Source: Squalus acanthias | Lineage: Eukaryota | NCBI GenBank assembly: GCA_030390025.1 | Contig: CM059453.1 | Coordinates: 6,634,001 to 6,698,000, forward strand | Direction of reading: 5' to 3' | Length of the DNA: 64,000 nucleotides | Shown: piece by piece, positions 11,601 to 60,115 of the stretch | How the letters are laid out: every line of letters starts with the position of its first letter | Position numbering within the stretch: the stretch's first letter is position 1 | Notes under the pieces: model-generated | What the model was told of the DNA's origin: nothing | The model's database searches: none | The model's input: the letters and a program-made list of their open reading frames with translations, nothing else | Made by a program: the position numbers and the translations under genes

Positions 11601-14600
11601 CAGCGTGCAAAATTTGTTCACTGGACAATATCCATAATACAAATAATTTGGAGATAATAAGACTCATGGTTATATTAAGTGTGGCCATATGTTAACCTAT
11701 GAGGCATAAAACTGCTTTACAACTGCGAAGAGTAATTCAGAATGGTGAACACACTTGCAAGACGTAGCAGAGAGAAATGAACAAAATCTGATTTTCTTGT
11801 TATTTCTATCTCAGATGTAGTTGTAAGCTATCAATCGCCCGTTTTAACATTGAAATGTACCTAACAAGCTGTTTTTCTCCCGTTTTTATAGAAAAGCCAG
11901 AGATTGCAGGTTATGGGGAATTGATCGCTGGACAAAAAGCACGATTGAAATGTTCCGTCACCCACAACTGCCCGGATGGCAAACTGAAACTGAAGTGGAT
12001 TAATTACGATGTGTCCCTTCCTCCCCCAATGGATACTCAAGATGGAGCAGAAATTAGCAATGAAAGTTCAGGTTCTCGGACAGTTTCATCCGTGATCACC
12101 TTTACACCATCATCTGCTCATGACGGGAAAATTCTGGGATGCACAATTCTAATTGATGGTATCCTAACTCCTTCGGCACAAAATCTTACCTTGGAGATTA
12201 AAGGTAAGTGTCCGATCTAAAGTAAACAGATTTATCCTGTAGGACAACGGGCTCCAAATTTTACAATTTTCCAACAAGTAATTTATTTGGGGTGAGAACT
12301 GCATCAAAGAATGCATCATGAAAAGCTTAGCCTCTGTACCAGGAGAGCTCACTTCAATAATCAAAAGTTCGGAATGCCTCTCATCTAATGCTCATCAGTC
12401 AGATTACATTAGAAACATTCATATCCATGAATCAATGATTTTGCCTACAACAGATTTTTTAATGTGATTGTTAATCTTTATTCTAAGAACTTCCAGTCAG
12501 GTTCTGAGTTTAGTCAGTCATAAATGGAAGCCATGATGCGGAGATGCCGTTGTTGGACTGGGGTGGACAAAAATGAGAGGTCGCACAAAACCAGGTTATA
12601 GTCCAACAGTTTTATTTAAAATTACGAGCTCGTAATTTTAAATAAAACTTTTGGACTATAACCTGGTGTTGTGCGACCTCTCATAAATGGAAGGAACAAA
12701 GGCCATGCCAAGTTAGGATCTGAAACGATGATACCCGATCTCAGCTCTGGGTGGGCTTAATAAGAACTTAAGAATTCGGAACAGGAGTAGGCCATACGTT
12801 CCTTCGAGCCTGTTCCGCCACTCCGGCAATCATGGCTAATCATCAATCTGAACTCCAATTTCTCGCCCGATCCCCATACCCAATATAATGAATAAAGTAG
12901 GGGCTCAATTATGCTTATTCGACAATCACATTTTGCATCAACGGCTGTTTCAGATGGACTGGAATTCCCAACGTTCTACTGCACTATAGTAGCTGTGGAA
13001 GGAAGTTCATTATTATTATACTGCACGGCCTGTGGGAAACCCCTGGTCAGTTCAAGATGTGTGAAAAATGGTGAAGAGATCAGCAGGTCTTCCACTGGTG
13101 AACTAAAGCAGATATTCCACAGCATCCGTTCTGAGGACGACGGTGAATATTGGTGCATAGCGGAAAATGCCGTGGGCACCACAAACCGTTCCACACAAAT
13201 GTCTGTACAATTTAATTATGTATTAATTTATCAATTAGATAGCAGCCTTTCAGTTCACGAACTCTGGATTAAATACCAATTTTCTCTTGCCTGCTTGCTG
13301 GAAGGCGCCCATGTGCACGAGTTAGGAATAGTTTCACCCCTTCCAGCGGAAATAGCGGGAAACTACCTCGATGGCAACAAAAATGGAAACTAACCCGGCA
13401 TCTCGCTCAGTATGACAGGAGTGGAATATGGCACAATGTCTCATAAATGCAGCAGGTCTTACATTTATGAGGTTGCGACACAAGCACATTTACTGGGACC
13501 TTTCCTCTACAACTAATTGTTCATAAATTATATTCGTCGTCCTAAATAAGCAACTTTCCAATCCTTAGAACTGACTTGCAGGAATTTGATGAGCACAAAT
13601 TCTCTCCAAAAAAAGTGTGATAAAATGTTGTTAAGCCATCTCCTGTTACTTGTATTAATGTTGATTGAATAGTGTAATATTCTCGCGAATTGGTTCTTTG
13701 AAATGTCTCCTTGAGAGCCGGACGTTCATTGAAGAATCACATCAGTCCACCACACATGAAGATGTTTAAAACAGGACACAAAGTGAAGACATTGAAATAA
13801 ATTGACCTTTTAAAACAGTGACGTTTGAGACACCTTTTTGGGTATACTATGCAGAATCAAATCTCTGAGCTAGCTCCGTCTGAGGGACCCTCACAACATC
13901 TGTCAGGAGATGTATTGATGGACTGAACACACATTTATTTAATGTTGATTTGTTCCTAACGAGCTCACCTGTTATAAGTGGAAATATAATAAAACATGAA
14001 CTGGTGCAACATAGGCTGCTTCATCTTAAAATATAACAACCAGAACTATTATTGTTATTTCAACTCATTACTTAATTTTATTTCGACACTACGGCAGTTT
14101 ACATGATCATTTACTGTTGAAGTTTCCATTTTTTGTAGATAAACCCACAATTTTAGCAGGCCCGACATGCACCAGCTCTGAGAATTGGACGAATTGTAGC
14201 TGCCGGATCAGAGCCAATCCCCCGGGAAACATCACGTGGGGCCTCAATGGGAGAATCCTCACTGGGGACAGGTCAGATGTGGAAATCATCTCCTGGGCGG
14301 TGAATAGTCGACTCATGGAGAGCTCCCTGAGACTGACTCACCCAACCGGAAACGGAAACCTGATCTCATATGTTGCAACAAACAAGCACGGTGATTCTGT
14401 CAGTAAATACCATCTCCACTCTAAGGGTACGTGTTTACTCTATCTGTAATGTAAAACTATAAGGGAGTTGGTCCACCACTGGTCAGTCACTAATTGAACG
14501 GTGTTAGTGTCAGCACATACCAGCTCCATTCAGCAGGTCCATACTGGATCTCTCTCGAATTAGTATTAGGACCGCTTTCCATCAGTGGTCAATCTCCGAC

Positions 14601-17600
14601 TGAAATGTGCGGTCGGCATTATCCATTTTAACTTTCATTCTTCTGCTACTTGTTCGGTTTATATTTTCAAGATAAGTTGAAATCATCTGAGCAGCTGAAT
14701 TAGCCAGTAATCTTGGAAAACAAATTCTTCTGATTTAAGATAAACCCTTTAGAAATTCCTAAATTATCTCAATACATGATAGCAAACTGCAATCTACACT
14801 TTTGTAGCTATATGCTCATTTCTATCTTATTCAGACTAATTTGGGGATGTAGAACCGATATTCAATAACCGAAGCGAAATTAAATTATCGCTATAGATTA
14901 TGAATCTTACCGCTGTAACTTGTGAACTTGGCGGGCCTGTATTCCGATCAGATTAAACCAACGCTTTTTCCTTGGGTGGGTTGTGGAGTGAACTTAATTT
15001 GTCAATTGAGATTTTTACATCAGTGAATCTTAATTTATTGATTCCAATTTACGCCAGGCCGCAACACAGGGATAAAAGGCTTTTACGCAAGGATCATCAG
15101 GTTTTGACAAGTGGAGTACATAATTTACAATTAGCTTTGTGATCCAATCATGAAGGAAACTTGCTTCATCACACTCATAAATGTGCTTCCAAGATTGTTG
15201 TTTAATCCCAAATTCCTAATACAGAGCAATGTTATCCGACATTTTAGGAATATACTCCAGGACAATCCTCCTCATAATAGGAGGAGGAGCCATTGGGCTT
15301 GTTATTCTAATTGCAATCGTGATCACGCTGAAGATAAAAAGGTAGGTGTGATTATTAATTATGTAGAATTAAGTTTCAACGCAAACCTGCATCAGAACGT
15401 TCATGTATCAAAATCTCCTTTAAATTAAACTCCCGTGAGAAAAGTGTGCATCAGCCGAAACTGGTCGGAAGGTCAATCATCCCTGACCATTCGCTCGCAT
15501 CTCCAAGCATCAAATACAGATTAATATTAGTGGCTGCTTGAATCAGGCTGTCTGTACATTCTTCCTGTTCCATTATAGGGGTCTGTTTCCTTCTGTTTAA
15601 AGTGGAAATTTTTGGACTTCTGATCGCTGGCGCTCTTTGTGCCAGGGAGTGTTTACAATTCCCGTGCAATCTGGATAAAGTTTTCAGCAGGCTCAAAGAA
15701 TGGGCAAACAATCCTTTCAGTTTTTTTCTGCTGCTGGTTTTATGGGGCATCCTCACACGAGCTTCCTTGTCATGACTGACTCTCAGCAAAACAATACACC
15801 AGATTGACAATTAAGCTCTATCAATCAAGCTAGTACAGCAAACAGTAAAGCAAAAAGCAAACAGTAAAATTAACGTGACACAGACGTTTACAGTCGTTGT
15901 TAAGGTTGCTTCGCTCAAGGAGTAGAAAATTAAATTTCAAAATTGGTGTGACTGAAGTGCTAAAGTATGATACAAGCAGTTATTCATGTTGCGCTTGTTA
16001 TCTTATTCTTCCCAGTGATTTAAGCTATTTCGTCTGACTAGCTTTCTTTCAAAGCTCTGGACAGACTCGCTGCTTTATATAGACAGGCTGATAATTACAT
16101 TCAGAATTGTGACCGGCTCCAACTGAATTCAAATAACACCCAATTAGGTTTACAATCGGCTGCCAATCAAATTTATCCTTCAACCAATCGGACAGGAGGT
16201 GTACAATTGAAATCTATGACGCCGCCCCTCAACAGACAATGTTTCGACAACAACCGCAACAGCATGAGCCAGAACACTCTTTTAGATTTTAATCCTTCCT
16301 GTACCATGATATATTTAAAGAAGGCAATTCCATGCTTAATAATATCAACTACTCAATGATCGCAAAAAGATTGATGAGGAATATTGATGTATTCCTAATT
16401 TCTAACTTCAATGTGTTGAAGTGGTCTACCTAATAATAGAAAGGACTGCGTTGACACATTGAACCACTTGCATCTGCTATTTTCCCAGGTTGAAATCATT
16501 AATAAACCTCCCACTGACCGTTATTTATCACACTCAACTTTCAGCTAGCGCAATCAGCACAGTATCATTAACACCAATCGTAGATACATTGAAATGCACC
16601 CCTTTTGAAATGTTGGCCTGTGGAAATTGAAATGAATTGGGTTGCGGATCTGGTCTGTGCTTTTTGGGAGAAGTAAATGACACAAGGTGCCAAATAAAAG
16701 GTTATTACATAAGATTAGGGCTCATGCTGTTGGGGGTTATATAGTTGCATGGATAGAGGATTGGTTAACAGACAGAAAACAGTGTCGGTATAAACGGATC
16801 TTTTTCAGGTTTGCAGGCTGCAACATGTAGGTTGCCGCAATGATCAGTGTTGGGGCCCCAGCTATTTAAAATCTATATTAATGATCTAGATGAAGAGACC
16901 GAGTGTAATGTATCCAATTTTTTTGCTGATACACAACTCGTGGGACAGTAAGGTGTGAGGAGACAACAAAGCGTCTGCTGAGGGATATAGATAGACTAAG
17001 TGAGTGGGCAGTAAGGTGGCAGATGGAGAATAATGTAAGGAAATGTGAGGTCATTCACTTTGGTAGGAAGAATAGCAAAACAGAATATTTTTTAAATGGT
17101 GAGAAACTTTCAAATGTTGGTGTTCAGGGAGATTTGCGTGTCCTCGTGCAAGAAACACAGAAAGCTAGCATGCAGGTACAGCAAGCAATAAGGAAGGCAA
17201 ATGGCGTGTTGGCCTTTATTGTTAGGGGGTTGGAGTCTAAGAGTAAGGAGGTTTTGCTACAATTGTACAGGGCCTTGGTGGGACCACACCTAGAGTACTG
17301 TGCACAGTTTTGGTCTCCTTATCTATGGAAGGATATATTTGCCTTGGAGGCGTGCAACGAAGGTTCACCAGATTGATTCCTGGGATGAGAGGGTTGTCTT
17401 ACGATGACAGATTGTGAAGAATGGGCCTATATTATCTGGAGTTTAGAAGAATGAGAGATGATCTCTTTGAAGCAGACAAGATTCTGTAGAGGATTGACAG
17501 GGTAGATGCTGTCAGGCTGTATCTCCTGGCTGGAGTCTCTAGAAATAGGGGGCATAGTCTCAGGATAAGTGGTAGGCCATTTAAGACGGAGATGAGGAGT

Positions 17601-20600
17601 AATTTCTTCGCTCAGAGGGTTGTGAATCTTTGGAATTCTCAGCCCCAGAGGGTAGTGAATGCAGAGTTTTGGATTATATTCAAGGCTGAGATAGATAGAT
17701 TGTTGGACTCTTGGGGAATCAAGGGATATGGAGATTGGGCGGGAAAATGGAGTGCAGTTCGAAGATCAGCCATGATCTTTTTGAATGGCGGAAAAGTCTA
17801 GAGGGGCCGTATGGCCGACTCCTGCTCCTATTTCTTATTTCTTATGTTCTTAAGTCTTTCCTGTCCCCCTCACGTCCTTCATCGCGCAGGCGCAGTGTGC
17901 TTTCACTAAACATTCCAGTTAATTAATAGAAGTGCCTCATTTGCATTTGTTATTATTCAGGAAGAAACATGGAGAAGCTGCACGTGTCTCCGATGCACAC
18001 GATGATTTGGTGATTTACAGTACGGTGCAGAAGGCACTAAACGATGACGTAAGTGATGCCAAGCTGGGCTGACAATTGTAGGATGTTTGGTGTACTTTCA
18101 ACCGGCAAGTGACCAATAAAGGTCAATACCCATCAGATAAACGGGAGTTACAGAAACGTGTTGGCCTTTAATGGAGGATTAACCGCCTCACGTCGCGAAG
18201 AGTGCAACAGAGCTACAAACTTTACATTAAGTGACCTACTAAATACATTTAGAAAGTATTTCTCACATTGGCGTTCCTTCTCAAAGCAAATTATTTCTTT
18301 AAGAATGCGTTTCCAATGTTATTTTACCTCCTGCCAATTAGGTTTCACGTGTTAAATGTCCAACACGATCACAAAGTGTTGGCGACACAGAGGGGATAAA
18401 CATTTTAGTTCCTCAGGTGCAACTCCGAATTGCATCTTGCTGCCGATGTGGTTCCCATGTTCCTCACCTTTCATTCAGAAGGTTGTGGCTTCAAGCTTCG
18501 CTCCAGCATTTGAACCTATAATCTGGGCTGAAACTTCATTTCAAAACTGAAGGAGTGCAACATTGCCTGAAGTCCCGTTCTTTCGATTAGATGTTAAACG
18601 TGGCCACCTTTGTTTCCTCCTATGGAGGGAAACGATCTTATGGTGCTACTGTGGGGAAGTTTGACAGTTTTCCCAGTGCCCTTGCAAACATTTCTCCCTC
18701 GATGAACACCAGCTAAAACGGATTAATTCGCCATTCATCCCATTAACTGGTTGTTGCATTTTTTCTACAACAGCGGCAAGAATTCAAAATGTATTATTTG
18801 CATAGCATCGATTCGGTCTTAATAATCACAGAATCATGCAGTCCAGAATGAGGCCATTCAGCCCATGGTGCCTGTGCTGGCTGTTTGAAAGAGCTAAATA
18901 ATTAGTCACACTACACTGATTTTGCCCTTAGCCCTGATTTAATTTGTTTTTCATATTCACGCATATATCCATTTCCCTTTTTATAGACACTATTGAATCT
19001 ACTGCCAGCGCCATAGAGGCAGCTCATTCCAAATCATTTGGTTCTTGTCCCAAATATCTTCAATCTGTGTCCATTGGTTAGCTACGTTCCTGCCAGTGGA
19101 AACAATTTCTCTAAATGTTGTATCAAAATTCTGCAGAATTTTGATCACCAATATCTAATCTCCCTTTAACATTCTCTACACTAAGCAGAACAATCCCAGT
19201 TTCCCTGGACTCTCCGTTTAAGTGCAGTTCCTCATTCATCCTATAATTCTAGCAAATTTGCTCTGTACCCTCTCGAAGGCATTGACATCGTTTTGACAGT
19301 GTTATGCACAAAATTGGTGAAATACGTCAGCCGAGGGCCAACCACTGATGTATAAAGGTTCAGAATATTTTCCTTGTTTTCATAATCTGTACCTCAATTT
19401 TAAAAACCCGGATCACGTATGTTATTTAGAATCCTTAGAATTATTTTACAGCACAGAAGGCGGCCATTCGGCCCGTTGTACCTGTGCCGGCTCTTTGAAA
19501 GAGGTTTCCAATTTAATCCCACACCCAAGCGATATCGACTCGTCCGGATATACAATTGCATTTTCTTTATTTCTTATAGAATCATAGAACAATAGAAGAT
19601 ATGAGCAGGATTAGGCCATTTGGCCCCTCTAGCCTGCTCCACCATTCAATGCGATCATGGCTGATCATCCAAATTCACTACCCTGTCCCTGCTTTCTCCC
19701 CATATCCCTTGATCCCTTTAGCCTTAAGAAATATATCCAACACCTTCTTGAATCTATTTAATGTATTGTCCTCTACTGCCTTCTATGGCAGAGAATTCCA
19801 CAGGTTCACCACTCTCTGGGTGAATAAATTCCTCCTCATTTCTGTCCTAAACGGCTTACCCCTTATCCTTCGACTGTGGCCCCTGGTTTTGGTCTCCCCG
19901 ACCATCGGGAACATCCTTCCTGCATCTAGTTTGTCCTGTCCTGTCAGAATTTTATAAGTTTCAATGAGATCCCCTCTCATTCTTTTAAACTCCAGCGAGT
20001 ATAAGCCCAATCGACCCAATCTCTCTTCATACGTCATTCCTGCCATGACAGGTGAAACTTCGCTGAACACCTTCCATGGCAAGAACATCTTTCCTCAGAT
20101 AAGGCGATCTAAACTGCACACAGTACTCAAGGTGTGGTCTCACCAAGGCCCTGCAGAACTGCAGCAAGACATCCTTGTTCCTGTACTAAAACCCTCTCCC
20201 TATGAAGGCCAACATACCATTTGCCTTCTTAACCGCCTGCTGCACCTGCATGCTTACCTTGAGCGACTGGTGCACATGGGCACCCAGATCTCGTTGCACT
20301 TCCCCTTCTCCCAATCTATTGCCATTCAGATAATAATCTGCCTTTCTGTTTTTGAGACCAAAGTGGATAACCTCGCATTTATCCACGTTATATTGCATCT
20401 GCCACGCTTCTGTCCAATCACCCAACCTGTCCAAATCATCCTGGAGTTTCTCTGCATCCTCCTAGCAGCACACACGCCCACCTAGTTTTGTGTCGTCTGT
20501 AAACTTGAAGATATTACATCTAGCTCCCTTTTACAGATCATTAATATATATTGTGAATAGCTGGGGTCCAAGGACCGCTCCCTGCGGTACCCCACTAGTC

Positions 20601-22586
20601 ACTGCCTGCCACTCGGAAAAAGACCCGTTTATTGCAACTCTTTGCGTTCTGTCTGCCAACCAGTTCTCTATCCATTTCAATACCTTGCCCCCAATCCCAT
20701 GTGCCTTAACTTTACACGCAAAAGGTAAATCATGCTTGACTAATCTACTGGAATGCGGGACCTTATCAAAAGCCTTTTGGAAGTACAAATACACGACATC
20801 CATTGGTTCTCCCTTTTCTAGTTTAGCAGTTACATCCTCAAAAAATTCCAGCAGATTAGTCAAGCATGATTTACCTTTTGTAAATCAATGTTGACTTTGT
20901 CCGATCCTGTCACTGTTTTTCAATTGCTCAGCTATTACATCTTTTATAATGGACTCCAGCATTTTCCCCACTACCGATGTCAGTCTTACCAGTCTGTAAT
21001 TCCCCGTTTTCTCTCTACCACCCTTTTTCAATAGTGGGGTAATATTAGCTACCCTCCAATCCATGGGTACTGTTCCAGATTCCATCGAATGTTGGAAGAT
21101 GATCAGCAATGCATCTACTATTGCTAGAGCCACTTCCTTAAGTACCCTAGGATTTAGATTATCAGGCCCTGGGGATTTATCGGCCTTCAATCCCTTCAAT
21201 TTCCCTACCACCATTTCCCTACAAATACTGATTTCTTTCAATTCCTCACTTTCATCAGACCATATGTTCCCCAACATCTCTGGTGAGTTTATTTGTGTCC
21301 TCCTTCGTGAAGACAGAACAAAAATATGTATTTAATTGGCCTGACATTTCTTTGTTCCCCATTATAATTTCCCCTGTTTCTGACTGCAAGGGACCTATGC
21401 TTGATTTCACTAATCTTTTTCTCTTCACATATCTATACAAGCTTTTACAGTCAGTTTTTATTTTCCCTGTAAGCTTACTCTGGTATTCTATTTTCCCCTT
21501 CTCAATTAATCTCTTTGTCCTCCTTTGTTCAATCTTAAACTGCTCCCAATCCACAGGGTTACTGCTTTTTCTGGCCAATTTATATGCCGTCTCCTTGGAT
21601 CTTATGCTATCCCTAATTTCCCTTGTTAGCAATGGTTGAGTCACGCTTTTTGTTTTATTCTTATGCCAAACTGGGATGAACAAATTCAGTAGTTTGTCCA
21701 TGCGGGCTTTGAATGTTTGCCATTGCCTATCCACCGTCAACCTATTGAGAGGCAGTGCCCAATCAATCCTAACCATCTCGCACCTCATACCATCGTAGTT
21801 TACTTTATTTAAATTCAGGACCCTACTCTCTGAGTCAACTACTTCATTCTCCATCCTAATGGAGAATTCTATCATATTATGATCGCTCCGACCCAAGGGG
21901 CCTCGCACAACAAGATTGCTAATTAATCCTTTCTCATTGCATAATACCCAGTCTACGATGGGCTAATCTCTGGTTGGTTCCTCGCATTATTGGTCCAGGA
22001 ACCCATCTCGTAAACACTCCAGGAATTCCTTCTCCATAGTATTGTTACTAATTTGGTTAGCCCAATCTATATGTAGATTAAAGTCAACCAAGATGACTGC
22101 TGTGCCCTTATTGCACACTTCTCTAATTTCCCTTTTAATGCCATCCCCAACCTCCGCATTACTGTTTGGAGGTCTATATATCAGTCCCACTGACGTTTTC
22201 TGCCTCTTGTTGTTTCTCAGTTCAACCCATACAGATTCCACTTCATCAGAGCTAATATCATTCCATCATGTCTTAACAACGCTCATCTCATGGATCAGTT
22301 CCATTAGAAAACTTACAAGGGAAAAAATAGTTTGATTTCTTCTGGTGCAGACAGCACACTCCCATCGCATTCTAATCCATATCTGCAATAGTTCCATATC
22401 TAACACAAATACCTTCCATTACAGAGGGACGATCAGTGTACAGAGGTTGGTCGTGGCGCCGCACAATCGACTAAACCAGCTCAGAATGTCGAGATTGCGT
22501 ACGCGACCGTCAATGTCTCCAACTTCCGCAAACATGATCAATATATTCAAAATGAGGAGACCAGCGAATATGCAGCAATTAAATAG
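8653..22586 (+). CDS. Siglec/MAG/CD22-like inhibitory receptor A1, spliced. Exons 8653-8695, 9333-9713, 11892-12203, [12954-13211 donor lost], 14139-14426, 15248-15341, 17961-18048, 22425-22586; 455 aa if the bracketed exon is skipped
   Basis: Kozak gccATG leader and phase-compatible AG/GT exons. Siglec-type V domain (GSCAEIRC...CSL) and C2 with CSVTHNCP. Membrane-proximal domain [13 protein letters not shown] resembles MAG domain 5 and Siglec-5. Uncharged TM; ITIM-type motifs VIYSTV, IAYATV and terminal SEYAAIK*. Confidence 0.85.
9333..9713 (+). CDS. A1 V-set Ig exon
   Basis: 381-nt open phase 1-1 exon within ORF 9296..9730; donor gtgagt. Confidence 0.92.
11892..12203 (+). CDS. A1 C2-set Ig exon (domain 2)
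   Basis: 312 nt, open; [32 protein letters not shown]; donor gtaagt. Confidence 0.92.
12531..12693. mobile_element. Penelope-type terminal-repeat insertion forming a 112-bp palindrome, with 13-bp target-site duplication
   Basis: Arms 12573-12628 and 12629-12684 (2 mismatches). tcataaatggaag at 12518-12530 and 12681-12693; single copy at the empty site ~49523. Arms match 27457-27510. Confidence 0.85.
12954..13211 (+). pseudogene. A1 third Ig exon: open frame but splice donor mutated (GT to TT)
   Basis: GTACAAT|ttaatt here versus GTACAAT|gtaggt at 50053 and GTACAAT|gtaagt in B1/B2; C-strand Trp position reads TGT. Confidence 0.75.
14139..14426 (+). CDS. A1 membrane-proximal Ig exon
   Basis: 288 nt, open; F-strand Cys replaced by Tyr (ISYVATN versus ISCVVAN in A2). 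Confidence 0.88.
15248..15341 (+). CDS. A1 transmembrane exon ([32 protein letters not shown])
   Basis: 94-nt phase 1-2 exon; 23-residue hydrophobic stretch followed by a basic stop-transfer sequence. Confidence 0.9.
16683..17853 (+). mobile_element. 5'-truncated CR1 LINE, unit 1 only
   Basis: [36 protein letters not shown], and a (cttatgtt) tail. Confidence 0.9.
17961..18048 (+). CDS. A1 cytoplasmic exon 1 with ITIM VIYSTV
   Basis: ttcag|G AAG AAA...GAT GAC|gtaagt, phase 2-0. Confidence 0.88.
18470..19400. mobile_element. Old Deu-SINE (+) followed by a decayed CR1 3' end (-); diverged counterpart at ~58900-59880
   Basis: gaaggagtgcaacattgcc...gatgttaaacg core, then aggccattcagccc tail on the minus strand. 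Confidence 0.55.
19578..22264 (-). mobile_element. CR1 LINE, ORF2 from mid-endonuclease through RT and 3' tail, fragmented
   Basis: ORF pieces [57 protein letters not shown]. Confidence 0.95.
22425..22586 (+). CDS. A1 terminal cytoplasmic exon with IAYATV (ITIM) and SEYAAI (ITIM/ITSM-like)
   Basis: ttacag|AGG GAC...GAA TAT GCA GCA ATT AAA TAG; resembles Siglec C-terminal TEYSEIK; AATAAA at 22667-22672. Confidence 0.9.
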   Translation, partial: RDDQCTEVGRGAAQSTKPAQNVEIAYATVNVSNFRKHDQYIQNEETSEYAAIK

Positions 22587-45655: not shown

Positions 45656-48600
45656 ATGAGGAGTTGCACGTTGCTGCCTCTCATAATGTTGACAGAAGGT
45701 ACATTTCAGATTTTTTTTTACAATTTCTGCAAGTGATAAATATCTTGTGGGAAAGGAACAGCATAATAACGAATATGAATGATTTTTTTGTTATTCATTT
45801 CAGAACTTGTGAAATAGGAATGTCATGATTGTTTAACACTTGCGTTGTTGTTGTATTATAGCGTATACAGCCTATTCAAATAATATTTAAATACAGGATT
45901 TTCAACTTATTTTTATTGTAAAGCACATTTAATAAAATTTACTTCATATTGATTGAGTGATTTAGAGGAGATTCATCCGATGATTAATATTTATTTTGAT
46001 CAATATTTTAATACCTATTCAATGAGAATATTTATTCGGCGTTCGCTTACTTGTTAGTGGATATGTATTCGTTTTTTAGATGAGTATTAAATATGTTGTT
46101 TATGTATATTACCGGATCATAAATCTCCCATCAAATAGGTATTCCTATGGCCATTTCCATAGGTGTTGTAATTGGAAATGATTCAGTATTTTTTCTTGAT
46201 TTTTAAAAGACTGATATTTTATTTGCTATTGTGATGGGCGATTATTTGTCAATTAACAAATACTTTAATGGATTATAAAGATGCTGAAATGCATTTTCAA
46301 TGACTAATTAAAGGGTGTCTAATTTATTTTTCTCAGTTGTTTTTAGTGCTGAATTCTCTGTGATGATACCAAAAGCTGTGTCGGCGGTGGCCGGTTCATG
46401 TGCAGAGATCCGGTGTACGTTTGATTATCCAGACGATCGGAGAATCGGTGATGTGACGTGGTTAAAGAAGGAACATGCTCCTGGTATCCCTGGCTTCTCC
46501 ATTATCTATGATTCTAAAGATCCATACAAGCAGCATTATAACTATCGTGGAAGAGCTGAGTTCAAGTGTAACATTGAAAAGAATCAATGTTCCCTCCTGC
46601 TAAAGGATATCAGGAAGAGTGATGAGGGTACATACGAACTCAGCTTCGAGTTCTCTTCGGCCTGGTATATTAATGGATGTCGCAATCAGCGTCCTCACGT
46701 ATTTCTTTCTGTTTTAGGTGAGTTTTCCCTTTGTTCCTTTTGTACATTTTCACTCCAGTGCTTCAGTATGAATCAACGTATGTGCAAAGTGGACACATAT
46801 TGTAATATCCCTGACGCATCTCAAAGGGTAGTTGAAACAATGGGTGCAGGGATACTGATAAGGGTCGCAGATGTCTGATATCCTAAACACAGAAGTATAT
46901 AGAAATTACAGCAGTAAAACAGGCCGTTTGGACCAGACAGTCCGTGTTGCTGTTTGACCTTCACATCAGCAACACTCCAAATTGCATTTGCCTGCTAAGT
47001 TCCCATATCCCTTTATTGCAATTCCCTTCCAACACGTGTCGAACCTATTAAGAAATGTTCACATGAGGATAGATTAGTACTTGCTTACTGAACCTAAAAC
47101 TGACGTTGTAGGTCGTTCTTCCAATACATAAACCAGCAACTCTTTATTTCCAATGAAATGAAAGATAATGAAACGAGGGCGATTGTTAGAATGGGTGACT
47201 TATCTGGAATGAGAGTTTTGACCACGTTGGCCATTTCAAATTCTACTTCAGTCAGCTTCTACCTATCTGTCGTGTTGCTTAATAAGTTTAAGCACATCTA
47301 TCAAATCGTCCCAAAGTCTGTTTTAGCCTTATAATATCTGCCCCAATTATTAAATACTTGCTTGGTATTTATACATCCTCATACCAGCCAGAAACCACGC
47401 GAATCCGCCCTAAATCCTTCCTATAGTCTGGTGCCCAATACCCGCATTCTTACTCCAAATGTGAACTGACGACGGCTCTCGTTAGAATCTCCACTATTCT
47501 CGAATTTATATTATTGATCTCTTGCCATTAAACCCAGAGCTCCAGAAACATCTTCATACACTTTCCCACTGGAGGTGCCACTTTTACTGTCTCATGAACC
47601 TGACCCCAAATTCCTCTGCTGATTCCACATCTCCCAGCTTCCTACGGTTCAAATTAACATCTACCACATCATATTTTCTGACCTTTAATTATATCTGCCT
47701 CTTATGTCCCCATTCTACTATATCTCCAGTATCTTTTTGTAACATCGCTTAAGTTTTCTAGTTATCAACTGGGAGTTGTACTTGCAAGGTTGGCATGGGT
47801 GTCAATCTGGCGATATTGGATGCGCCTCTAATTGTCCACCCCGCCCAATTTTCATTTTGATGAAATCCAATTAATTCCTGCCGGGAAATTTTGACATTTT
47901 TCTCTTTAGCGCCTTCTCCAAATTATTGATGCACACAGTGAGTAGAAACAATCCCACAGTACAACCCTATGGGAAACCGTACTGGGATCCAACTTTTCTG
48001 AACAACTGCGCCTAACAGCGACTCGCTGCATCGTCCCTTTTAAACAGTTTGTATTGCAAGTTCTACCATATCCTTAAATCCAAACGTTTAATATCTTCTG
48101 CAATAATCTCCTCTGTTTACCGTCGGTAATGACTGCTTGATTACATTTCAAGTTACTTTTTGGTGAAGCGTCTTTTGACGTACGAGGACTTAAAAGGCGT
48201 TGAATTAATGCAGTCTTTGTTCGTGCCTTTCCCTGTCCAACGCTCATTTACCCCGCTTTTAATTAGATCTTAATTAAAAATTAGATATTTCAGTAACGTG
48301 AAAATCAGTTCAAGCTATAATTTATTTGTTCATTCAAATCCCAAGGCTACAAATACTATTTCTGCGGAAGCCTTCTTCAGATTTACACGCAAGGAACCTG
48401 CTCTGCTTCTCCCACACACGATGGTGTTTCCCGTCGTTTGTCTGGTCTGTCTATGTCTTGAGCATTATCGTTCTATGTTGACGTTTCTTGACAACAGAAT
48501 CGAGATCTGTCTGGGTCTGCATTAATCACCATCACATAGGCAATTGCTGGTGCAGAACAAGGTATGCGATAGGATGAAATATTCGTGACATTTGAGGAAT

Positions 48601-51600
48601 TAACGTTGATTCGAAGTCCAGCGTGCAAAATTTGTTCACTGGACAATATCCATGATACAAATAATTTGGATATATAACGACTAATAGTTATTTAAGTGGG
48701 GCCATTTGTTACCTGATGAGGCATAAAACTGCATTACAACTGCGAGGAGTAATTCAGAATGGTGACACAGTTGCAACACGTGGCAGAGAAAAATGAGCAA
48801 AATGTGATTTTCTTGTTATTTCTTTCTCAGATTTAGTTGTAAGCCCATTTTAAAATTGAAATGTACCTAACAAGCTGGTTTTCTCCCGTTTTTATAGAAA
48901 AGCCAGAGATTTCAGGTGATGGGGAATTGATCGCTGGACAAACTGCACGATTGAACTGTTCCATCACGCACAACTGCCCGGAAGGCAACCTGAAACTGAA
49001 GTGGATTAATTACAATGTGTTCCCTTCTCCCCCAATGGATACTCAAGTTGGAGCAGAAATTAGAAATGAAAGTTCAGGTTCTCGGACAGTTTCATCCGTG
49101 ATCACCTTAAAACCATCATCTGCTCATGAAGGAAAAATTATGGGATGCACAATTCTAATTGATGATATCCCAACTCCTTCTGTACAAAATATTACCTTGG
49201 AGATGAAAGGTAAGTATCCGGTGTAAAGTAAACAGACTTATCCTGTCGGACAACGGGCTCCAAATCTGCAATTTTAGCACAAGTAATTTATTAGGGGTTA
49301 GAACTGCATCAGAGGATGAATCATGAAAAGCTCAGCCTCTGTACCAGTAGAGCTTACCTCGATAACCAAACGTTCGGAATGGCTCTCATCTAATTCTCAT
49401 CATTCAGATTACATTAGAATCATTCATATCCATGAATCAATTATGGTGCCTACAACAGATTTTTTAATGTGATTGTTAATAATTATTCTATGAACTTCCA
49501 GTCATGTTCTGAGTTTAGTCAGTCATAAATGGAAGCAACAAAGGCCATGCCGAGTTAAGATCTAAAGCTATGACACCAGATCTCAGCTCTGGTTGAGCTT
49601 AATAAGAACTTAAGAATTAGGAACAGGAGTAGGCCATACGGCCCTTCGAGCCTGCTCCGCCACTCCGGCAATCATGGCTGATAATCGAAGTTAACTCCAA
49701 TTTCCCGCCTGATCCACATACCCATTATAATGAATTAATTAGGAGCTCAATTATGCTTATTCGACCGTCACGTTTTGCATTAACGTCTGATTCAGAGGGA
49801 CTGGACATCAGAACCGTCAACTGCTCTATAGTTGCTGTGGAAGGAAGTTCATTCTTATTTTCCTGCACGGCCTGTGGGAAACCCCTGGTCAGTTGAAAAT
49901 GTGTGAAAAATGGGGTAGAGATCAGCAGGTCTTCCACTGGTGAACTAAAGCAGATATTGCGCAACATTCGTTCAGAGGACGGCGGTGAATATTGGCGCCT
50001 AGCTGAAAATGCCCTGGGCACCACAAAACGTTCCACATAAATTTCTGTACAATGTAGGTATGTATTAATTTATCAATTAGACAGTAGCCTTTCATGTCAC
50101 GAACTATGGATTAAATTCCAATTCTCTCTTGCCTGCTTGCTAGAAGGCTCCCATGTGTATGAGTTTGGGACAGTTTCACCCCTTCCCGCGGAAATAGCGG
50201 CAAACTACCTCGACGGCTTCAATAATGGAAACTAACCTGGCATCTCGCTCAGTATGACAGGAGTGGAATATCGCACAATGCCTCATAAATGCAGCAGGTC
50301 TTACATTTATGAGGTTGCGACACAAGCACATTTACTGGGATATTTAATCGACAACTAATTGTTCATAAATTATACTCATCATCTGAAATAAACAATCCTT
50401 AGAGCCGGCTTGCAGCAATTTGATGAGTACCAATTATTTCCAAAAAAAGTGAGATAAAATGGTGTTCAGCCAACTCCTGTTACTTGTATTAACGTTGAGT
50501 TAATAGTGTAATATTCTCGCGTCTTGGTTCTTTGAAATGTCGCCTTGTGAGCCGGACGTTTATTGAAGAATCACGTCAGTCCACCATAAATGAAGATGTT
50601 TAAAACAGTACACAAAGTGAAGACATTGAAATAAATTGAACTTTTAAAACATTGACGGGTGAGACACCTTTGTGGGCTATTATACATGATCAAATCTCTG
50701 AGCTAGCTCCGTCTGAGGGTCCCTCACAACATCTGTCATGAGATGCATTGATGGACTGAACACTCATTGGATTTAATATGGAATTGTTCCTAACGAGCTC
50801 ACCTGTTATAAGTAAAAATATAATAAGCCATGAACTGGTGCAACATAGATTGCTTCATCTTAAAATATAACAACCAGAACTATTATTGTTATTTCAACTC
50901 ATTACTTCATTGTATTTTGACACTACAACTGTTTTCATGATCATTTCCTATTGAAGTTTCCATATTTTTTTTAGGTAAACCCACAATTTTAGCAGGCCCG
51001 ACATGCACCAACTCTGAGAATTGGACGGATTGTAGCTGCCGGATCAGAGCCAATCCCCCGGGAAACATTACGTGGGGCCTCAATGGGAGAATCCTCACTG
51101 GGGACAGGTCAGATGTGGAAATCATCTCCTGGGCGGTGAATAGTCACCGAATGGAGAGCTCCCTGAGACTGACTCACCCACCCAGAACCGGAAACCTGAT
51201 CTCATGTGTTGTTGCAAACGAGCACGGTGAATCTGTCAGTATATATGATCTCCACTCTAAGGGTACGTTTTTAATCTATCTGTAATGTAAAACTATAAGG
51301 GAGTTGGTACATCACTGGTCAGTCACTAACTGAACGGTGTTAGTGTCAGCAAATACCAGCTCCAGTCAGCAGGTCCATACGGAATCTAACTCGAATTAGT
51401 GTTAGGACCTATTTTCAATCAACAACTGAAAGGTGCGGTCGGCATTATCCATTTAAACTTTCAGTCTTCTGAAACTGGCTCGGTTTATATTTTTAGATAT
51501 GATGAAATTATCTGAACACCAGAAGTAGCCAGTGATCTTGGAAAACAAATTCTTCTGAATTAAGATAAACACTTTTGAAAATCCAAATTACTCTTAATAC

Positions 51601-54600: not shown

Positions 54601-57600
54601 ACACATGGTCGTCAGGGATACAGGAAGCGTCGCTGATTTCCCACATATAGCAGGAGGAGCATATCACGGGGCAGAGCTCTCCTGCCATGATTTACCCTTT
54701 AATTAATTAATTACAATTAAACTGATTGAATGCCACCAATTTCAATTCAATTAAATGATATACTTAAGAGCCTTTGCTTAACAGCCGTCCCCGCTACACC
54801 ACAGAGACTCTAGAAACTATAAACCACAGAATTTAAGTATGGAAAAAAGGAGAAAGAGAGAAATACTCACCAACCAATCACTTACCTGCTTTCTGCTGAT
54901 GTCACTCTTCGATTACTTTTTACTTCTTTACACTCACCGGTCCGTTGCAGCTCACCTTTGAAATCTCCCGAGGTTTGGCGCTCTCCAGCCGCTCTCGTTC
55001 ACCTTTGAAATCTCCCGAGGTTTGGCGCTCTCCAGCCGCTCTCGCTCACCTTTGAAATCTCCCGAGGTTTGGCGCTCTCCAGCCGCTCTCGCTCACCTTT
55101 GAAATCTCCCGAGGTTTGGCGCTCTCCAGCCGCTCTCGCTCACCTTTGAAATCTCCCGAGGTTTGGCGCTCTCCAGCCGCTCTCGCTCACCTTTGAAATC
55201 TCCCGAGGTTTGGCGCTCTCCAGCCGCTATCCGCTTTAATTAATTGAACTTAAATTAAATCAAATCAATCCCACCAATTATACTATAATTAAATGATATA
55301 GGGCCCTTGTTTACCAACTTTCCCCGCTACACCACAGAGACCCTAGAAACTTTAAATCACAAAATTTAAGTTTGGAAAAAAGAGTTAAAGAGAAATACTC
55401 ACCAACTTCTGTGTTTCTAAGCGGAGTGCCTCACTTTCCATTAGCTTTCTGATCCAAACATAAAGGAAACTTGATACCTCACACACAAAAATTTGCTTCG
55501 AAGATTGTTGTTTAAATCCAATTCCTTAAGGTACAGCAATGTTTCTTTCCAATTTTTTAGGAATATTCTCCAGGACAATTGTTCTCATCATAAGAGGAGG
55601 AGCCACTGGGATTTTTTTTCTAATTGCAGTCGTGCTCCTGCTGAAGATACAAAGGTATGAGTGATTCCTAATTACATAGAATGAAGTTTTAAAGGGGATC
55701 CTGCATCAGAAATTTCGTGTATAAAAAGGTCGTTGAAATTAATCTCCCGTGAGTAGAGTGAGCAAATGCCTGAATCGAAGCTGAAAGGAGGTGGGTCAAT
55801 CGTCCCCTGACCAGTCGCTCGCATCTCCCAGCATCAGCTATGGAGTAATATTAGTGTCTGATTCAATGGGGCTATCTCTGCATTCTTCTTGTTATATTAT
55901 TGCGGTTTGTTTCCTTATAGATAACTGACATTTTTGGACTTCTGATCGCTGTCGCGCTATGCGCCAGGGATTGTTTTCGCCTACCGTGTAATCTAGATAA
56001 AATTCGCAGTATGCTCAAAGAATGGACAGAGAAACCCTTCCAGTTAGTTTCTGCTGCTGGTTTTACGGGGCACCCTCACTCAAGCCTCCTTGCCATGTCA
56101 GGCTCCCAGCACAACACTAAACCAGGTTGATATTAAGTTCTAACAATCAAGCAAGTCCAGCAAACAGTAAAACAACAAACAAATAGTCAAATTAACGTGA
56201 CACATATGTTTACAGTAGTGGTTAAGTTTGTTTGGATCCAGGAGTAGAATATTATATTTCAAAATTGGGTGTGACTGATGTGCTAAAGTATGATATAAGG
56301 GATTATTTATGTTGGGCTTGTTATCTTATTCTTACCAGTGACTTAATATATTTGGCATGACTAGCTCTCACTGAAAGATCTCGACAGAATCCCCGCTTAT
56401 AATGGATATGCTGATAATTAGCTTCAAGGAGGTGAACGGCTCCAAGTGAATTCCAATTATATCTATTCGGATTATAATGTGCTGCAAACCAAAATTACTC
56501 TTCAACAAATCACAAACGATGTTTACAATTGAAATCAGTGACGGGCTCCTCAGGTAGGGGCCCTCCATAACAGATAATGATTCGGCAACAAAAATAACAA
56601 GATGAGTTCGAATACTCTTGTGAGTTTTGCTGGATTATAACCCTTCCTGTACCATGCTAAGTAATATATAAATGCTTCTTTCAGTGATACTGAGGAAGGA
56701 TCTCAAAGTGGTTATTGAGGAATATCGATTTATTCCCCATTTCACACTCAAATTTTGATATATATTAATAACTTGGACATGGGGGTACAGGGCACAATTT
56801 CGAAATTTGCAGATGACAGCGAACATGGAAGTGTAGTGAACAGTGAGGAAGATAGTAATAGAGTTCAAAGGGACAGAGACAGGCTTGTGGAATGGGTGGA
56901 CACATGGCAGATGAAAGTCAACACAGAAAACTGTGAGGTGTTAGATTTGGGTAGGGAGAATGAGAAGAGACAAGACATGCGAAATGGTACAATTTTAAAG
57001 GGGGTGCAGTAACAGAGAGACGTGGTGCTGCTTGTGCACGACACTTTGTAATTGGCAGGACAGGTTAATAAAGCATCAATAAAGATTATGGAAGCCTGGA
57101 CTTTATAAATAGTTGCACAGAGTACAAAAGCCAGAAAGTTGTGCTCACCCGATAGAAAACATTGGTTCGGCCCCAGCTGGAGTATTCTGTCCAATTCTGA
57201 GTACCACACTATCGGAAGGAGGTGAAGGCTTTGGAGAGGGTGCAGAAGAGATTTACTAGAATGGTTCCAGGGATGAGGGATTACAGTTATGTGGATAGGC
57301 TGGAGAAGCAGGGCCTGTTCTCCTTAGAGCAGCGAAATAAATAGGAGATTTGATAGACCTGTTCAAAATCATGGAAGGTTTAGATAAAGTAAATAACGAT
57401 AAATTGATTACAATGCCTGAAATTTCGTTAACCAGAGACAGAGGTTTAAGGCGATTGGCGAATGAACCAGAGGCGACATGAGGACAAAATTAATTTAAGC
57501 AAAAAGTGGTTAGCATTTGAAATGCACTGACCGAAAGGGTTATAGATCTAGTAATCATAGATTGTAATGTGTTTGCACGTTGAAACTCTTCCATCTGCTA

Positions 57601-60115
57601 CTTAATAAGTTGTTAAAATACTGAATGATCCTCCTATGTCCTATCAGCACAATCAGCTTTCACCATGAGCAAGCAACTCCGCGCCATTAACCAGCTTCAT
57701 TGATAAAGTCAACAGTTCCCTTTTGAAATGTAGGCAGATTGATAATTGAAAAGAATTGCAGAGCGGACGTGGTCTGTGCTAATCAGAAAACGTAAAAGAT
57801 ATAGGTCTCTCCTGACCTACGAACGTCCTTCACAGTATACATTAAGTAAACATACCAGTTATCTATGAAATGTGCGTTATTGTTATTTGTTATTATTTAG
57901 GAAGAAGAGCAGTGAGACTGCATGCGTGCCGAAAACGACTAGTGGTGCGATGGTGTACACTGGGGTTCTAAACGGCGAGGTAAGTGAAGCCAAGCTGGAG
58001 TGACAATTGTAGGATGTTTGGTGTGTTTTCAACCAGCGAGTGACCCAGAACAGGCAAAGCCCAATAGATAAATGGGACTTTCAGAAATTTGGTCCCTAGT
58101 GTTTTAAGGGGGTAATAGCCACTAAGAGTGAAGTATATCGACGGACTCTATAGATAGTTTTTTTTATTCGTTCTAGGGATGTGGGCGTGGCTGGCAAAGC
58201 CAGCATGTATTGCCTATCCCTAATTGCCCTTGAACATGTGGTGGTGAGCCGCCTTCTTGAACCGCTGCAGTCCGCGTTCTGAAGCTGCTCCCATAGTGCT
58301 GTTAGGGAGGGAGCTCCAGTATTTTGACCTAGCGACAATAAGGAATGGCGATATATTTCCAAGTCAGGATGGTGTGTGACTTGGAGGGGAACTTGGAGGT
58401 AATGGTGTTCCCAAGCACCTGCTGGCCTTGTCCTTCTAGCTGGTAGAGGTTGCGGGTTTGGGAGTTGCTGCCGAAGAAGCCTTGGTGAGTTGCTGCAGTG
58501 CATTTTGTAGATGGCACACACTGCAGCCACGGTGCGCCGGTGGTGGAGGGAATGAATGTTAAATGTGGTGGATGGGGTGCCACTCAAGCGGGCTGCTTTG
58601 TCCTGGATGGTGTCGATTTTGTACAGTGTTGGGGCTGCACTACCTGTAGATAGCGCCTTCGTAAGTGGAATTAGGGTGTATTTCCCACGTTGCTATTTCT
58701 ATTCAAAACAAACTCTTTCAAAAATAATGCGTTCCCCAACTTACCTTACCCAATTCCCGTTACCATTAGGTCACATGAGGTTAAATATTCAACGCAGTCA
58801 CAGAAGCTGTCAGATGTATCAGAGGGATCCATATTACTCAGGATTATGTTCAATTTCCGAACTGCACCTCACTGTCGATGTGGCCCAATTGTCCATCACC
58901 TTTAAGGCGGAAGGATTTGGGTTTAAGCTTCACTCCGGCATTTGAACGGTCAGTGCAACACTGAGGGAGAGCTGCATTGCCAGTGGTACGTCTTTTGAGA
59001 CTTTAAAACGCGCTCCCGTTTGCTTCTTCCTGTGGAGGGAAGCGAAATCACGTTCTTATTGTGGAATCGGAAGAATGTTCTCCCCGTACCCTTGCAAGCA
59101 TTTCTCCCAATAAACACAATCTAAAAAAGATTAATTCGCCATTTGTCTAATTTACTGGTTGCTGCATGTTGCTCCAACAGTGATTATACTTTAAAAGTGA
59201 TCCATTGACTAGCAACGCTTTGCTATTATTAAACATGGAATCACACAGCACAGAAGAGGCCATTCAGGCCACCGTGTCAGTGTTGGATCATGGAAAGATC
59301 TAACCAAGTCTTCATGTGAGCCCTGCTCTTTCCCCATCGCCCCTGAAAATGTTCCCCTTTTCAAGTATGTATCCAAGTCACCTTTGAAAGTTACAATTCA
59401 GTCTGCCTCTACCATTCTTGCAGGCAATACATTCCAGATCATACGAACTCGCAGCGTGAAAAAAGTCTCCCTCTCGTTATTTTGCCAATCAGCTTAAAAT
59501 TGAGTCCTCTGGTAACCGACACTCCTGCCAGCGGAAACAGTTTCTCCGATTTACTCCATCAAAAACATTAATAACTTTGAAATCCTCTTTTAAATCTCCC
59601 CAAACCTTTTCTGTTCTAAGAACATCAATCGCCGCTTCTCCAGTCTCTCCGCATAATTGAAGACCCGTAACCCTGGCAGGATTCTAGTAAATCTCCTCTG
59701 CAAATTCTGTATGTCTTGACATCTTTCCTAATGCGTGTACTTGACACAATGCTCCAGCTGAGATCAAACCAGTGATTTTTACAGGTTTAGCGTAACTGCC
59801 TTGATTTTGTACTCGATGAATTTATTATAAATCTATGAGTCCCGAATGCATTTAAACAGCCTCAGCAACTTCCTCTGATATAAATTTGGAAGATATTTAT
59901 TTCTAGCATCAAGACCTCACAACGCATATCTCATGAATGAGCGCCATTAGAAAAGTTACCAGAGATTATATAGTTAGCTGTGCTCTGGTGCAGACAGCGC
60001 ACTCCCATCGTGTTCAACTTTAAATCTGCAATAGCTCCATATCTAACACGAATTTCTTCCATTACAGAGGGACGATTACGTGAGCCCCGCAATCGATGCA
60101 ACCAGCTCAGAATGA
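45656..60115 (+). CDS. Siglec-like receptor A2, candidate activating paralog (or pseudogene). Exons 45656-45698, 46337-46717, 48898-49209, [49796-50053 with stops], 50975-51262, 55561-55654, 57901-57979, 60068-60115; 414 aa if the bracketed exon is skipped
   Basis: All unbracketed exons are open with AG/GT sites and compatible phases. TM carries Arg (AGA 55593-55595). Last exon is frameshifted to RDDYVSPAIDATSSE*. Confidence 0.7.
46337..46717 (+). CDS. A2 V-set Ig exon
   Basis: 381 nt, open, within ORF 46315..46878. Confidence 0.9.
48898..49209 (+). CDS. A2 C2-set Ig exon (domain 2)
   Basis: 312 nt, open; CSITHNCP. Confidence 0.9.
49796..50053 (+). pseudogene. A2 third Ig exon, disabled
   Basis: TGA at 49894-49896, TAA at 50038-50040, F-strand Cys to Arg (EYWRLA); AG and GT retained. 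Confidence 0.88.
50975..51262 (+). CDS. A2 membrane-proximal Ig exon
   Basis: 288 nt, open, all Cys retained (GPTC..CSC...ISCV). Confidence 0.88.
51922..55405 (-). mobile_element. CR1 LINE 5' half: 5'UTR, ORF1 (Zn finger, coiled coil, SGNH esterase), ORF2 APE endonuclease; 3'-truncated at KGKSCL
   Basis: ORFs 54329..54688 (CSSC..CGKC), 54019..54348 (IGDSIVR..HLGFND), 52930..53550 (CLNARS, ITETWL, YRPP, GDFN, SDHN). Confidence 0.93.
54952..55228. repeat. 47-bp tandem repeat, ~6 copies, in the CR1 5' region
   Basis: tcacctttgaaatctcccgaggtttggcgctctccagccgctctcgc starting at 54952, 54999, 55046, 55093, 55140 and 55187. Confidence 0.95.
55561..55654 (+). CDS. A2 transmembrane exon with intramembrane Arg (GIFSRTIVLIIRGGATGIFFLIAVVLLLKIQR)
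   Basis: 94-nt phase 1-2 exon; GGA in A1 (15280-15282) is AGA here. Confidence 0.88.
56700..57550 (+). mobile_element. Degenerate CR1 RT fragment, unit 2 only
   Basis: IYINNLD..ISKFADD..LVEWVDTWQM. Confidence 0.85.
57901..57979 (+). CDS. A2 cytoplasmic exon 1 (RKKSSETACVPKTTSGAMVYTGVLNGE)
   Basis: tttag|G AAG AAG...GAG|gtaagt; homologous to 17961-18048 and 9 nt shorter. Confidence 0.82.
58160..58640 (-). mobile_element. LINE 3' end (CR1/L2-like RT C-terminus and tail)
   Basis: NIHSLHHRRTVAAVCAIYKMHC; tail shared with the SINE at 32205-32690. Confidence 0.75.
60068..60115 (+). CDS. A2 terminal exon, frameshift-truncated; ancestral ILYVTV and CEYAPI motifs lie out of frame downstream
   Basis: 13 nt between GAT and CAATCG versus 30 nt in A1; TGA at 60113-60115. 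Confidence 0.82.
   Translation, partial: RDDYVSPAIDATSSE

What the first reader, a model, noticed from the sequence alone, without database searches (positions are those of the whole stretch)
55561..55654. A2 transmembrane Arg sits at the position used by FcR-gamma-coupled receptors
Seen: in TIVLII-R-GGATGIFFLIAVVLLL-K the Arg is near the outer end of the helix, followed by 16 uncharged residues, and differs from A1 by one base (GGA to AGA). Known: LILRA, FcalphaRI, GPVI and NKp46 have an outer-leaflet Arg (NLIR-type motif) that pairs with FcR-gamma, whereas mammalian activating Siglecs use DAP12. Inference: A2 may use FcR-gamma/CD3zeta rather than DAP12.
Basis: partly seen in the sequence, partly recalled or inferred. 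Interest (0 to 1): 0.7.

Follow-up and report, generated by a model that had tools for sequence, protein, structure and literature searches.

The report
Shark Siglec-like receptor switched to "on"
A shark immune-receptor gene belongs to a group of 11 copies that gained a membrane arginine and lost their inhibitory tail motifs, likely making them activating partners of near-identical inhibitory receptors that likely signal through the FcR-gamma chain, but this copy has two stop codons and is probably broken.

Summary
In detail: exon 55561-55654 (AG..GT) encodes Arg (AGA, 55593-55595) followed by 16 uncharged residues; A1 has GGA. It is not a private change. Of 41 paralogous membrane exons examined, 11 form one clade (100/100) with this Arg, and all 11 lack ITIMs; A2's 41-residue tail lost them through a remodelled exon and a shared frameshift. 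This module sits on scattered ectodomain lineages. A2's first three Ig exons are 98-99.5% identical to those of an ITIM gene, as in paired receptors. The genome has a single-ITAM FcR-gamma gene and a CD3-zeta membrane exon, whose Asp lies at matching depth. Against: binding is untested, the NxxR Asn is absent, Arg-plus-ITIM paralogs exist, the clade is one event and too shallow to show selection, and I recall (unchecked) that DAP12-coupled Siglec-14 also has an outer Arg. The scan noted similar Arg helices elsewhere in this cluster; those belong to an older, separate subfamily. Verdict: new variant of a known kind, moderate interest.

The parts
45656..45698 (+). A2 signal-peptide exon (ATG, 14 codons plus 1 base, GT donor)
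   Evidence: tblastn with the N-terminus of shark protein P0011, E 5e-5; donor read from the printed sequence
46337..46717 (+). A2 V-set Ig exon, open; Ser at the place of the sialic-acid-binding Arg
   Evidence: Pfam V-set 9.6e-13 and Ig_CD22 2.9e-9; best PDB match sialoadhesin 3e-14, alignment shown
48898..49209 (+). A2 second Ig exon, open
49796..50053 (+). A2 third Ig exon, broken: stops at 49894-49896 and 50038-50040, second Ig Cys changed to Arg; splice sites intact; 258 nt, same phase at both ends
50975..51262 (+). A2 membrane-proximal Ig exon, open
55561..55654 (+). A2 transmembrane exon (the finding)
55593..55595 (+). Arg codon AGA, codon 11 of the exon
57901..57979 (+). A2 tail exon 1, 79 nt against 88 nt in ITIM paralogs; frame kept; the ITIM VIYSTV of A1 reads MVYTGV
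60068..60115 (+). A2 tail exon 2 up to its new stop; a net 17-nt deletion leaves the downstream ILYVTV and CEYAPI motifs (to about 60212) out of frame
15248..15341 (+). A1 transmembrane exon, Gly11 (comparison gene)
17961..18048 (+). A1 tail exon 1 with ITIM VIYSTV
22425..22586 (+). A1 tail exon 2 with IAYATV and SEYAAI motifs
12954..13211 (+). A1 third Ig exon, open, but its donor reads TT

Best explanation
A2 carries a signalling module, a membrane Arg plus an ITIM-free tail, shared by 11 paralogs in a shark Siglec-like gene cluster; it likely arose once from an inhibitory gene and likely signals by pairing with the FcR-gamma (or CD3-zeta) dimer, while A2 itself has two stop codons and is probably a dead copy. 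Shown: the Arg, the ITIM loss, one clade of signalling halves, scattered ectodomain origins, a near-identical ITIM partner, and an FcR-gamma gene with its Asp at matching depth. Inferred: the Arg faces the two Asp residues of the adaptor dimer in the outer leaflet, this lets the complex leave the ER, and ligand binding triggers the adaptor's ITAM and Syk-type kinases, countering the ITIM twin. Recombination or gene conversion would keep moving the module onto new ligand-binding fronts, and many products decay. A2 could make protein only if its third Ig exon is skipped, which would keep the frame.
For: 11 of 11 Arg-clade tails lack an ITIM; 25 of the 26 genes with the 88-nt tail exon have at least one. 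All 11 share the 16-nt gap in tail exon 2. The clade has 100/100 support on membrane exon plus intron. On V plus second Ig exon, the 10 members with data need 6 state changes, and holding them together is rejected, p-AU 6e-9. A2's V, second and third Ig exons are 99.5, 99.0 and 98.0% identical to those of ITIM gene C30:7470369. FcR-gamma: membrane exon, best PDB match FcR-gamma 1.3e-11 ahead of zeta 2.7e-9, three further exons giving one ITAM. Depth 16 versus 15 and 15. Outer Arg pairs with gamma/zeta, central Lys with DAP12 (PMC13107469, passages). The same route is described for KIR and Ly49 (PMC2213150, abstract and section 7). All 11 also have Leu26 where 28 of the other 29 have Thr.
Against: The 11 of 11 match is one event. 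The clade's internal length of about 0.25 changes per site gives a 0.55 chance of keeping the Arg without selection. Membrane-exon dN/dS is 1.25 on few changes. No NxxR Asn. Three paralogs have Arg11 and one has Arg10 in front of ITIM tails. A horn-shark protein (P0012) with Arg two places further out and a sevengill-shark protein (P0089) with Lys there keep Tyr-motif tails. So outer basic residues may be merely tolerated. The short-window scan can leave the Arg outside the core. Only 1 of 11 clade members (C30:6242399) has four clean Ig exons. Recalled and unchecked: Siglec-14 has an outer Arg yet binds DAP12.
Confidence: 0.45

Rival explanations
1. The Arg is a tolerated change at the membrane surface in a lineage that had already lost its ITIMs. 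The clade is a set of non-signalling decoys or decaying duplicates that need no adaptor.
For: GGA to AGA is one transition. Arg also occurs at positions 10, 11 and 13 in other branches, some with ITIMs and some broken. Two Gly11 genes (C152:460004, C3212:2699621) have altered or truncated tails without the Arg. 10 of 11 clade members have a lesion in an Ig exon. Retention of the Arg is not significant. Short-window scans place the helix after the Arg.
Against: Arg gain, Leu26, the remodelled tail exon and the frameshift all mark one stem. The module sits on several ectodomain lineages, in three cases as sister to an ITIM gene. No charged residue occurs at positions 14-27 in 40 exons. A separate subfamily has an Arg in a similar register in several sharks.
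Confidence: 0.3
2. The clade is activating but couples to DAP12 or DAP10, as activating mammalian Siglecs do.
For: Siglec-14, -15 and -16 use a membrane Lys or Arg with DAP12 (PMC6890642, PMC9404585, PMC13358205, passages). I recall that the Arg of Siglec-14 lies near the outer end; the source papers were not held and one search found no passage. NKG2D uses Arg with DAP10.
Against: The review states that DAP12 partners have a central Lys and that the NKG2D Arg is mid-membrane. Here the Arg matches gamma/zeta depth. No DAP10-family match passed the cut-off among 45 candidates; this is weak, since the ITAM search also missed the known FcR-gamma ITAM.
Confidence: 0.15
3. The short tail signals on its own through its retained Tyr residues, with the Arg secondary.
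For: 7 of 11 tails keep a Tyr in tail exon 1; A2 and its twin have a second Tyr in a YxxP context. Tail exon 1 lost 9 nt in frame, and its dN/dS is 0.61.
Against: 4 of 11 tails stop before any Tyr. The motifs fit neither ITAM nor ITIM (for ITIM; ITAM by inspection).
Confidence: 0.1

Closest known systems
Rhesus KIR3DH, and recurrent activating KIR and Ly49 (PMC2213150, abstract and section 7 read)
   Same: One origin of a signalling half, a frameshift that removes the ITIMs, Ig domains that are not monophyletic, and short-lived activating copies derived from inhibitory genes.
   Different: Different receptor family and lineage. Here the Arg appears to come from a Gly codon of the family's own inhibitory helix, not from a borrowed KIR2DL4-type helix. 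That KIR2DL4 has an outer Arg and binds FcR-gamma is recalled.
NxxR-type FcR-gamma partners: LILRA2, PIR-A, NKp46, GPVI, OSCAR, CD89, Xenopus XFL TM1 (PMC2413239 and PMC13107469, passages read)
   Same: Arg near the outer end of a single helix, a short tail without ITIM, membership of a paired family.
   Different: No Asn at minus 3. The helix is derived from a Gly-rich inhibitory helix. The ectodomain is Siglec-like with a V-set domain. Binding is not shown.
Primate paired Siglec-5/14 and Siglec-11/16 (PMC13358205, passages read)
   Same: Siglec-type ectodomain nearly identical between an ITIM gene and a charged-helix gene.
   Different: Those couple to DAP12 and bind sialic acid. A2 has Ser at the essential Arg site, the family has at least 41 membrane exons, and A2 is broken.
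Older Arg-helix subfamily of the same cluster (G000:C30 near 6910814 and 7137075; relatives P0020 basking shark, P0024 smooth-hound)
   Same: Arg 17 residues before the next charged residue in three of the four, and an ectodomain of the same general build.
   Different: The helix is only 20-28% identical to A2's, the V domain is of the other (B) type, and it is shared across shark species. A2's Arg was not seen at position 11 in any of 9 A-type proteins from other sharks.

Membership tests
FcR-gamma-coupled NxxR-type receptors | Arg near the outer end of the helix, at the depth of the adaptor Asp | tested here: met
   16 uncharged residues to the inner Lys, against 15 for this genome's FcR-gamma and zeta Asp; whether it lies in the core or at the surface is borderline in the same call
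FcR-gamma-coupled NxxR-type receptors | Asn three residues before the Arg (NxxR) | tested here: not met
   Leu at that position in 39 of 40 exons, Pro in 1; motif defined in PMC2413239
FcR-gamma-coupled NxxR-type receptors | Short tail without ITIM | tested here: met
   41 residues, 0 ITIM; predicted from splice sites, not from RNA
FcR-gamma-coupled NxxR-type receptors | Adaptor gene present in the species | tested here: met
   FcR-gamma on C1222 with one ITAM; zeta-type membrane exon on C5
FcR-gamma-coupled NxxR-type receptors | Arg-dependent physical association with FcR-gamma | not testable with these tools
   Needs co-expression experiments
DAP12-coupled receptors | Centrally placed Lys | tested here: not met
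   No charged residue at positions 14-27 in 40 exons; rule from PMC13107469; Siglec-14 recalled as an exception
DAP12-coupled receptors | DAP12 or DAP10 gene present | tested here: inconclusive
   0 of 45 DAP10-family candidates over the cut-off; the ITAM search missed even FcR-gamma
Siglecs | N-terminal V-set domain of Siglec type with the extra cysteines | tested here: met
   Pfam Ig_CD22; best PDB match sialoadhesin with aligned cysteines
Siglecs | Essential sialic-acid-binding Arg on the F strand | tested here: not met
   Ser in A2; Arg in only 3 of 36 V exons
Siglecs | Sialic acid binding | not testable with these tools
   Needs a glycan assay
Paired activating/inhibitory receptors | Near-identical ectodomain with an ITIM-bearing partner | tested here: met
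   98-99.5% over three exons with C30:7470369; sisters in the ectodomain tree, 100/99
Paired activating/inhibitory receptors | Intact reading frame in A2 | tested here: not met
   Two stops in the third Ig exon; the partner gene has two stops in that exon too
Paired activating/inhibitory receptors | Opposite signalling shown in cells | not testable with these tools
   Needs reporter assays

The most novel reading that the evidence does not exclude
Sharks built FcR-gamma-coupled activating Siglec-like receptors twice in one cluster: an old Arg helix shared across sharks and a young one made by a single Gly-to-Arg change plus ITIM loss. The young clade, A2 included, works mainly as three-Ig receptors that skip a dispensable third Ig exon. 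This would be Siglec-family activation through FcR-gamma in a lineage once reported to lack that chain.
Probability: 0.2. Interest if true: 0.7.

Novelty: new variant of a known kind. Interest (0 to 1): 0.45.

Why it matters
If binding is shown, a Siglec-type family would use FcR-gamma rather than DAP12, and the KIR/Ly49 rule that old adaptors repeatedly recruit activating receptors from inhibitory ones would extend to the oldest jawed-vertebrate lineage. The one-codon Gly/Arg pair and an identified shark FcR-gamma make this directly testable. The FcR-gamma gene also corrects a 2014 statement that cartilaginous fish lack it (PMC4016189, passages). The general design is well known, and this copy is probably broken, which limits the interest.

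Tried and rejected
1) An open frame at 34496-34789 with ITIM-like motifs looked like A1's tail and tracked the Gly genes. It was rejected once shark protein tails located the real tail exons. 2) RNA: no RNA holder was listed. Laying three possible RNA runs on 48800-51400 gave only two short contigs about 90% alike on the second Ig exon, repeat matches, and no joints; this says nothing on expression or exon skipping. 3) Complex modelling of the A2 helix with the FcR-gamma dimer was not available; nothing was folded. 4) DAP10/DAP12 searches were uninformative. 5) dN/dS per exon did not show that the third Ig exon is uniquely free: 0.76 in 7 broken Arg genes against 0.47 in 24 ITIM genes, while V and second Ig exons are near or above 1 in all classes. 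6) A PDB search with the A2 helix gave only chance matches, E above 3. 7) The position of the Siglec-14 Arg could not be checked. 8) A crude scan for the signal exon missed it; homology found it. In one search the A1 residues before the membrane exon were read out of frame; only its helix was used. 9) Literature searches on shark Siglecs and adaptors listed no paper on this cluster. Most subscription papers are not held and no supplements were read, so prior description is not excluded.

Full report
Setting. The window is a tandem duplication, about 1-35.5 kb against 35.5-64 kb, in a 3.7-Gb genome. The closest proteins are all from sharks. Each unit holds a plus-strand gene (A1, A2) and a minus-strand gene (B). 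A2 has a signal exon, four Ig exons, the membrane exon and two tail exons. Its V domain matches Pfam Ig_CD22 and sialoadhesin best in the PDB, but has Ser at the essential Arg. It is Siglec-like, not a canonical Siglec.

Observation. Confirmed. The Arg is codon 11 of a 94-nt exon with proper splice sites, 16 uncharged residues precede Lys28, and A1 has GGA. Whether the Arg lies inside the hydrophobic core is borderline in a crude scan with recalled scales.

Family. A DNA search with the exon gave 40 matches, a lower bound; A1 was not among them. I analysed these 40 plus A1. Arg11 occurs in 14 of the 40 full-length exons; the 41st has a 6-nt deletion. Eleven form one clade, 100/100. All 11 have an altered first tail exon and a shared 16-nt gap in the second, and none has an ITIM in frame. 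Of 26 genes with the 88-nt first tail exon, 25 have at least one ITIM. These 25 include three Arg11 genes from another branch and one Arg10 gene. The other four genes are one Gly11 gene with an uncertain donor and three Arg10 genes with frameshifted V exons, whose last tail exon lies about 12 kb downstream and carries a stop. All tails are predicted from splice sites and homology to shark proteins, not from RNA.

Pairing. On V plus second Ig exon (36 genes with both), the 10 Arg-clade genes scatter: 6 state changes, and one clade is rejected at p-AU 6e-9. A2's V, second and third Ig exons are 99.5, 99.0 and 98.0% identical to ITIM gene C30:7470369, against 93.9, 91.6 and 88.7% to A1. So A2's partner is that gene, not A1. 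This matches what PMC2213150 (abstract, section 7) describes for KIR3DH: one signalling half, ITIMs lost by frameshift, mixed Ig domains.

Adaptor. The Pfam zeta family finds two membrane exons in the genome. The one on C1222 matches FcR-gamma best and is followed by three exons that give a single ITAM. The one on C5 reads like CD3-zeta (type assigned from recalled features; its tail was not found in the 10 kb examined). Both keep Cys and Asp, with 15 uncharged residues to the inner basic residue, against 16 for A2's Arg. PMC13107469 (passages) says CD89, NKp30 and NKp46 use an Arg in the upper helix with gamma or zeta, that DAP12 partners have a central Lys, and that correct placement of the basic residue can suffice. 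PMC2413239 (passages) defines the NxxR motif, which A2 lacks, and shows that dependence on FcR-gamma varies. PMC4016189 (passages) reported no FcR-gamma in cartilaginous fish; this genome contradicts that. DAP12 and DAP10 presence is unresolved. Reviews confirm that Siglecs pair with DAP12 through Lys or Arg (passages of PMC6890642, PMC9404585, PMC13358205, PMC8198044). I recall, unchecked, that the Siglec-14 Arg is near the outer end, which would weaken the depth argument. PMC4536121 and PMC13233462 (passages) added nothing specific.

Is the Arg selected? Not shown. The association is one event. The clade is shallow, with a 0.55 chance of keeping the codon's meaning neutrally. Arg also occurs at positions 10, 11 and 13 elsewhere, and two A-type proteins from other sharks have a basic residue two places further out with Tyr-motif tails. 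In favour: Arg11, Leu26 and the tail changes mark one stem, and no charge occurs at positions 14-27. A separate subfamily in the same cluster has an Arg 17 residues before the next charge, with relatives in basking shark and smooth-hound; a catshark model has a similar helix. Those helices are 20-28% identical to A2's, and 0 of 9 A-type proteins from other sharks have Arg11. This points to an independent, younger origin, on a thin sample.

Is A2 alive? Its third Ig exon has two stops with intact splice sites, which would likely trigger decay of the message. That exon is broken in 8 of 11 clade members, and in 7 it is the only damaged Ig exon. It is broken in 6 of 25 ITIM genes, and broken, partial or absent in 19 of 41 overall, against 1 of 41 for the second and 3 of 41 for the fourth Ig exon. 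Several lesions are shared, so these counts are not independent. The V exon was out of reach for 4 ITIM genes. The exon is 258 nt with equal phases, and 5 of 11 related shark protein models lack this domain, so skipping is plausible but unshown. I put the chance that A2 makes protein near 0.3. One clade member, C30:6242399, has four clean Ig exons; its signal exon was not checked.

Verdict. A real feature and a coherent activating-type module in a large paired family; I put about 0.7 on activation and 0.45 on activation through FcR-gamma or zeta. The design is known from KIR, LILR, XFL and Siglec pairs. What is new is the lineage, the probable adaptor and a second, recent origin within one cluster. 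Searches listed no paper on it; supplements were not read. Earlier notes of this scan reached a similar reading for the older subfamily; they are not independent support.

Noticed in passing
G000:C1222, about 13,850-25,700, minus strand (L154, L162, L163): FcR-gamma gene with membrane exon, two short exons and a last exon forming one ITAM (signal exon not sought); a 2014 survey (PMC4016189) reported no FcR-gamma in cartilaginous fish.
   Followed up: yes
G000:C30:6841743, 246189, 206089, 7297628: Arg at position 11 (AGA or CGA) or 10 in front of ITIM tails, possible dual-function receptors; the three Arg11 genes have Ig-exon lesions, while 7297628 has four clean Ig exons.
   Followed up: partly
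G000:C30:6867279, 7679320, 7321010: The only 3 of 36 V exons with Arg at the Siglec sialic-acid site all belong to the Arg/short-tail clade; all three have a 1-nt deletion in the third Ig exon.
   Followed up: no
window 12954-13211 and about 14140-14427: A1's third Ig exon has a TT donor and its fourth Ig exon has Tyr for the second Cys, so A1 may also be damaged or skip an exon.
   Followed up: partly
window 41260-36175, minus strand: Gene B2 runs V, two further Ig exons, then directly a tail exon with stops; no membrane-proximal Ig or membrane exon was seen between them. B1 at the left end looks similar.
   Followed up: partly
window 34496-34789, plus strand: Open frame with ITIM-like motifs, repeated at about 26 strong matches on C30; not the tail of the A genes, function unexplained.
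   Followed up: partly
G000:C30:7510370 and 7470369: An A1/A2-like pair 820 kb away; A2's front resembles the ITIM gene there while its membrane exon is identical to the Arg gene, a sign of recent exchange or of a duplicated haplotype in the assembly.
   Followed up: partly
window 54950-55228: A 47-bp tandem repeat, 5.9 copies at 99%, in the intron just before the A2 membrane exon; this intron is about 4.3 kb against roughly 0.8 kb in most paralogs and holds retroelement-like sequence.
   Followed up: no
window 46337-46717 and paralogs: V exons have dN/dS of 1.2-1.3 (2.35 in a subset of 7), a hint of diversifying selection on the ligand-binding domain.
   Followed up: no
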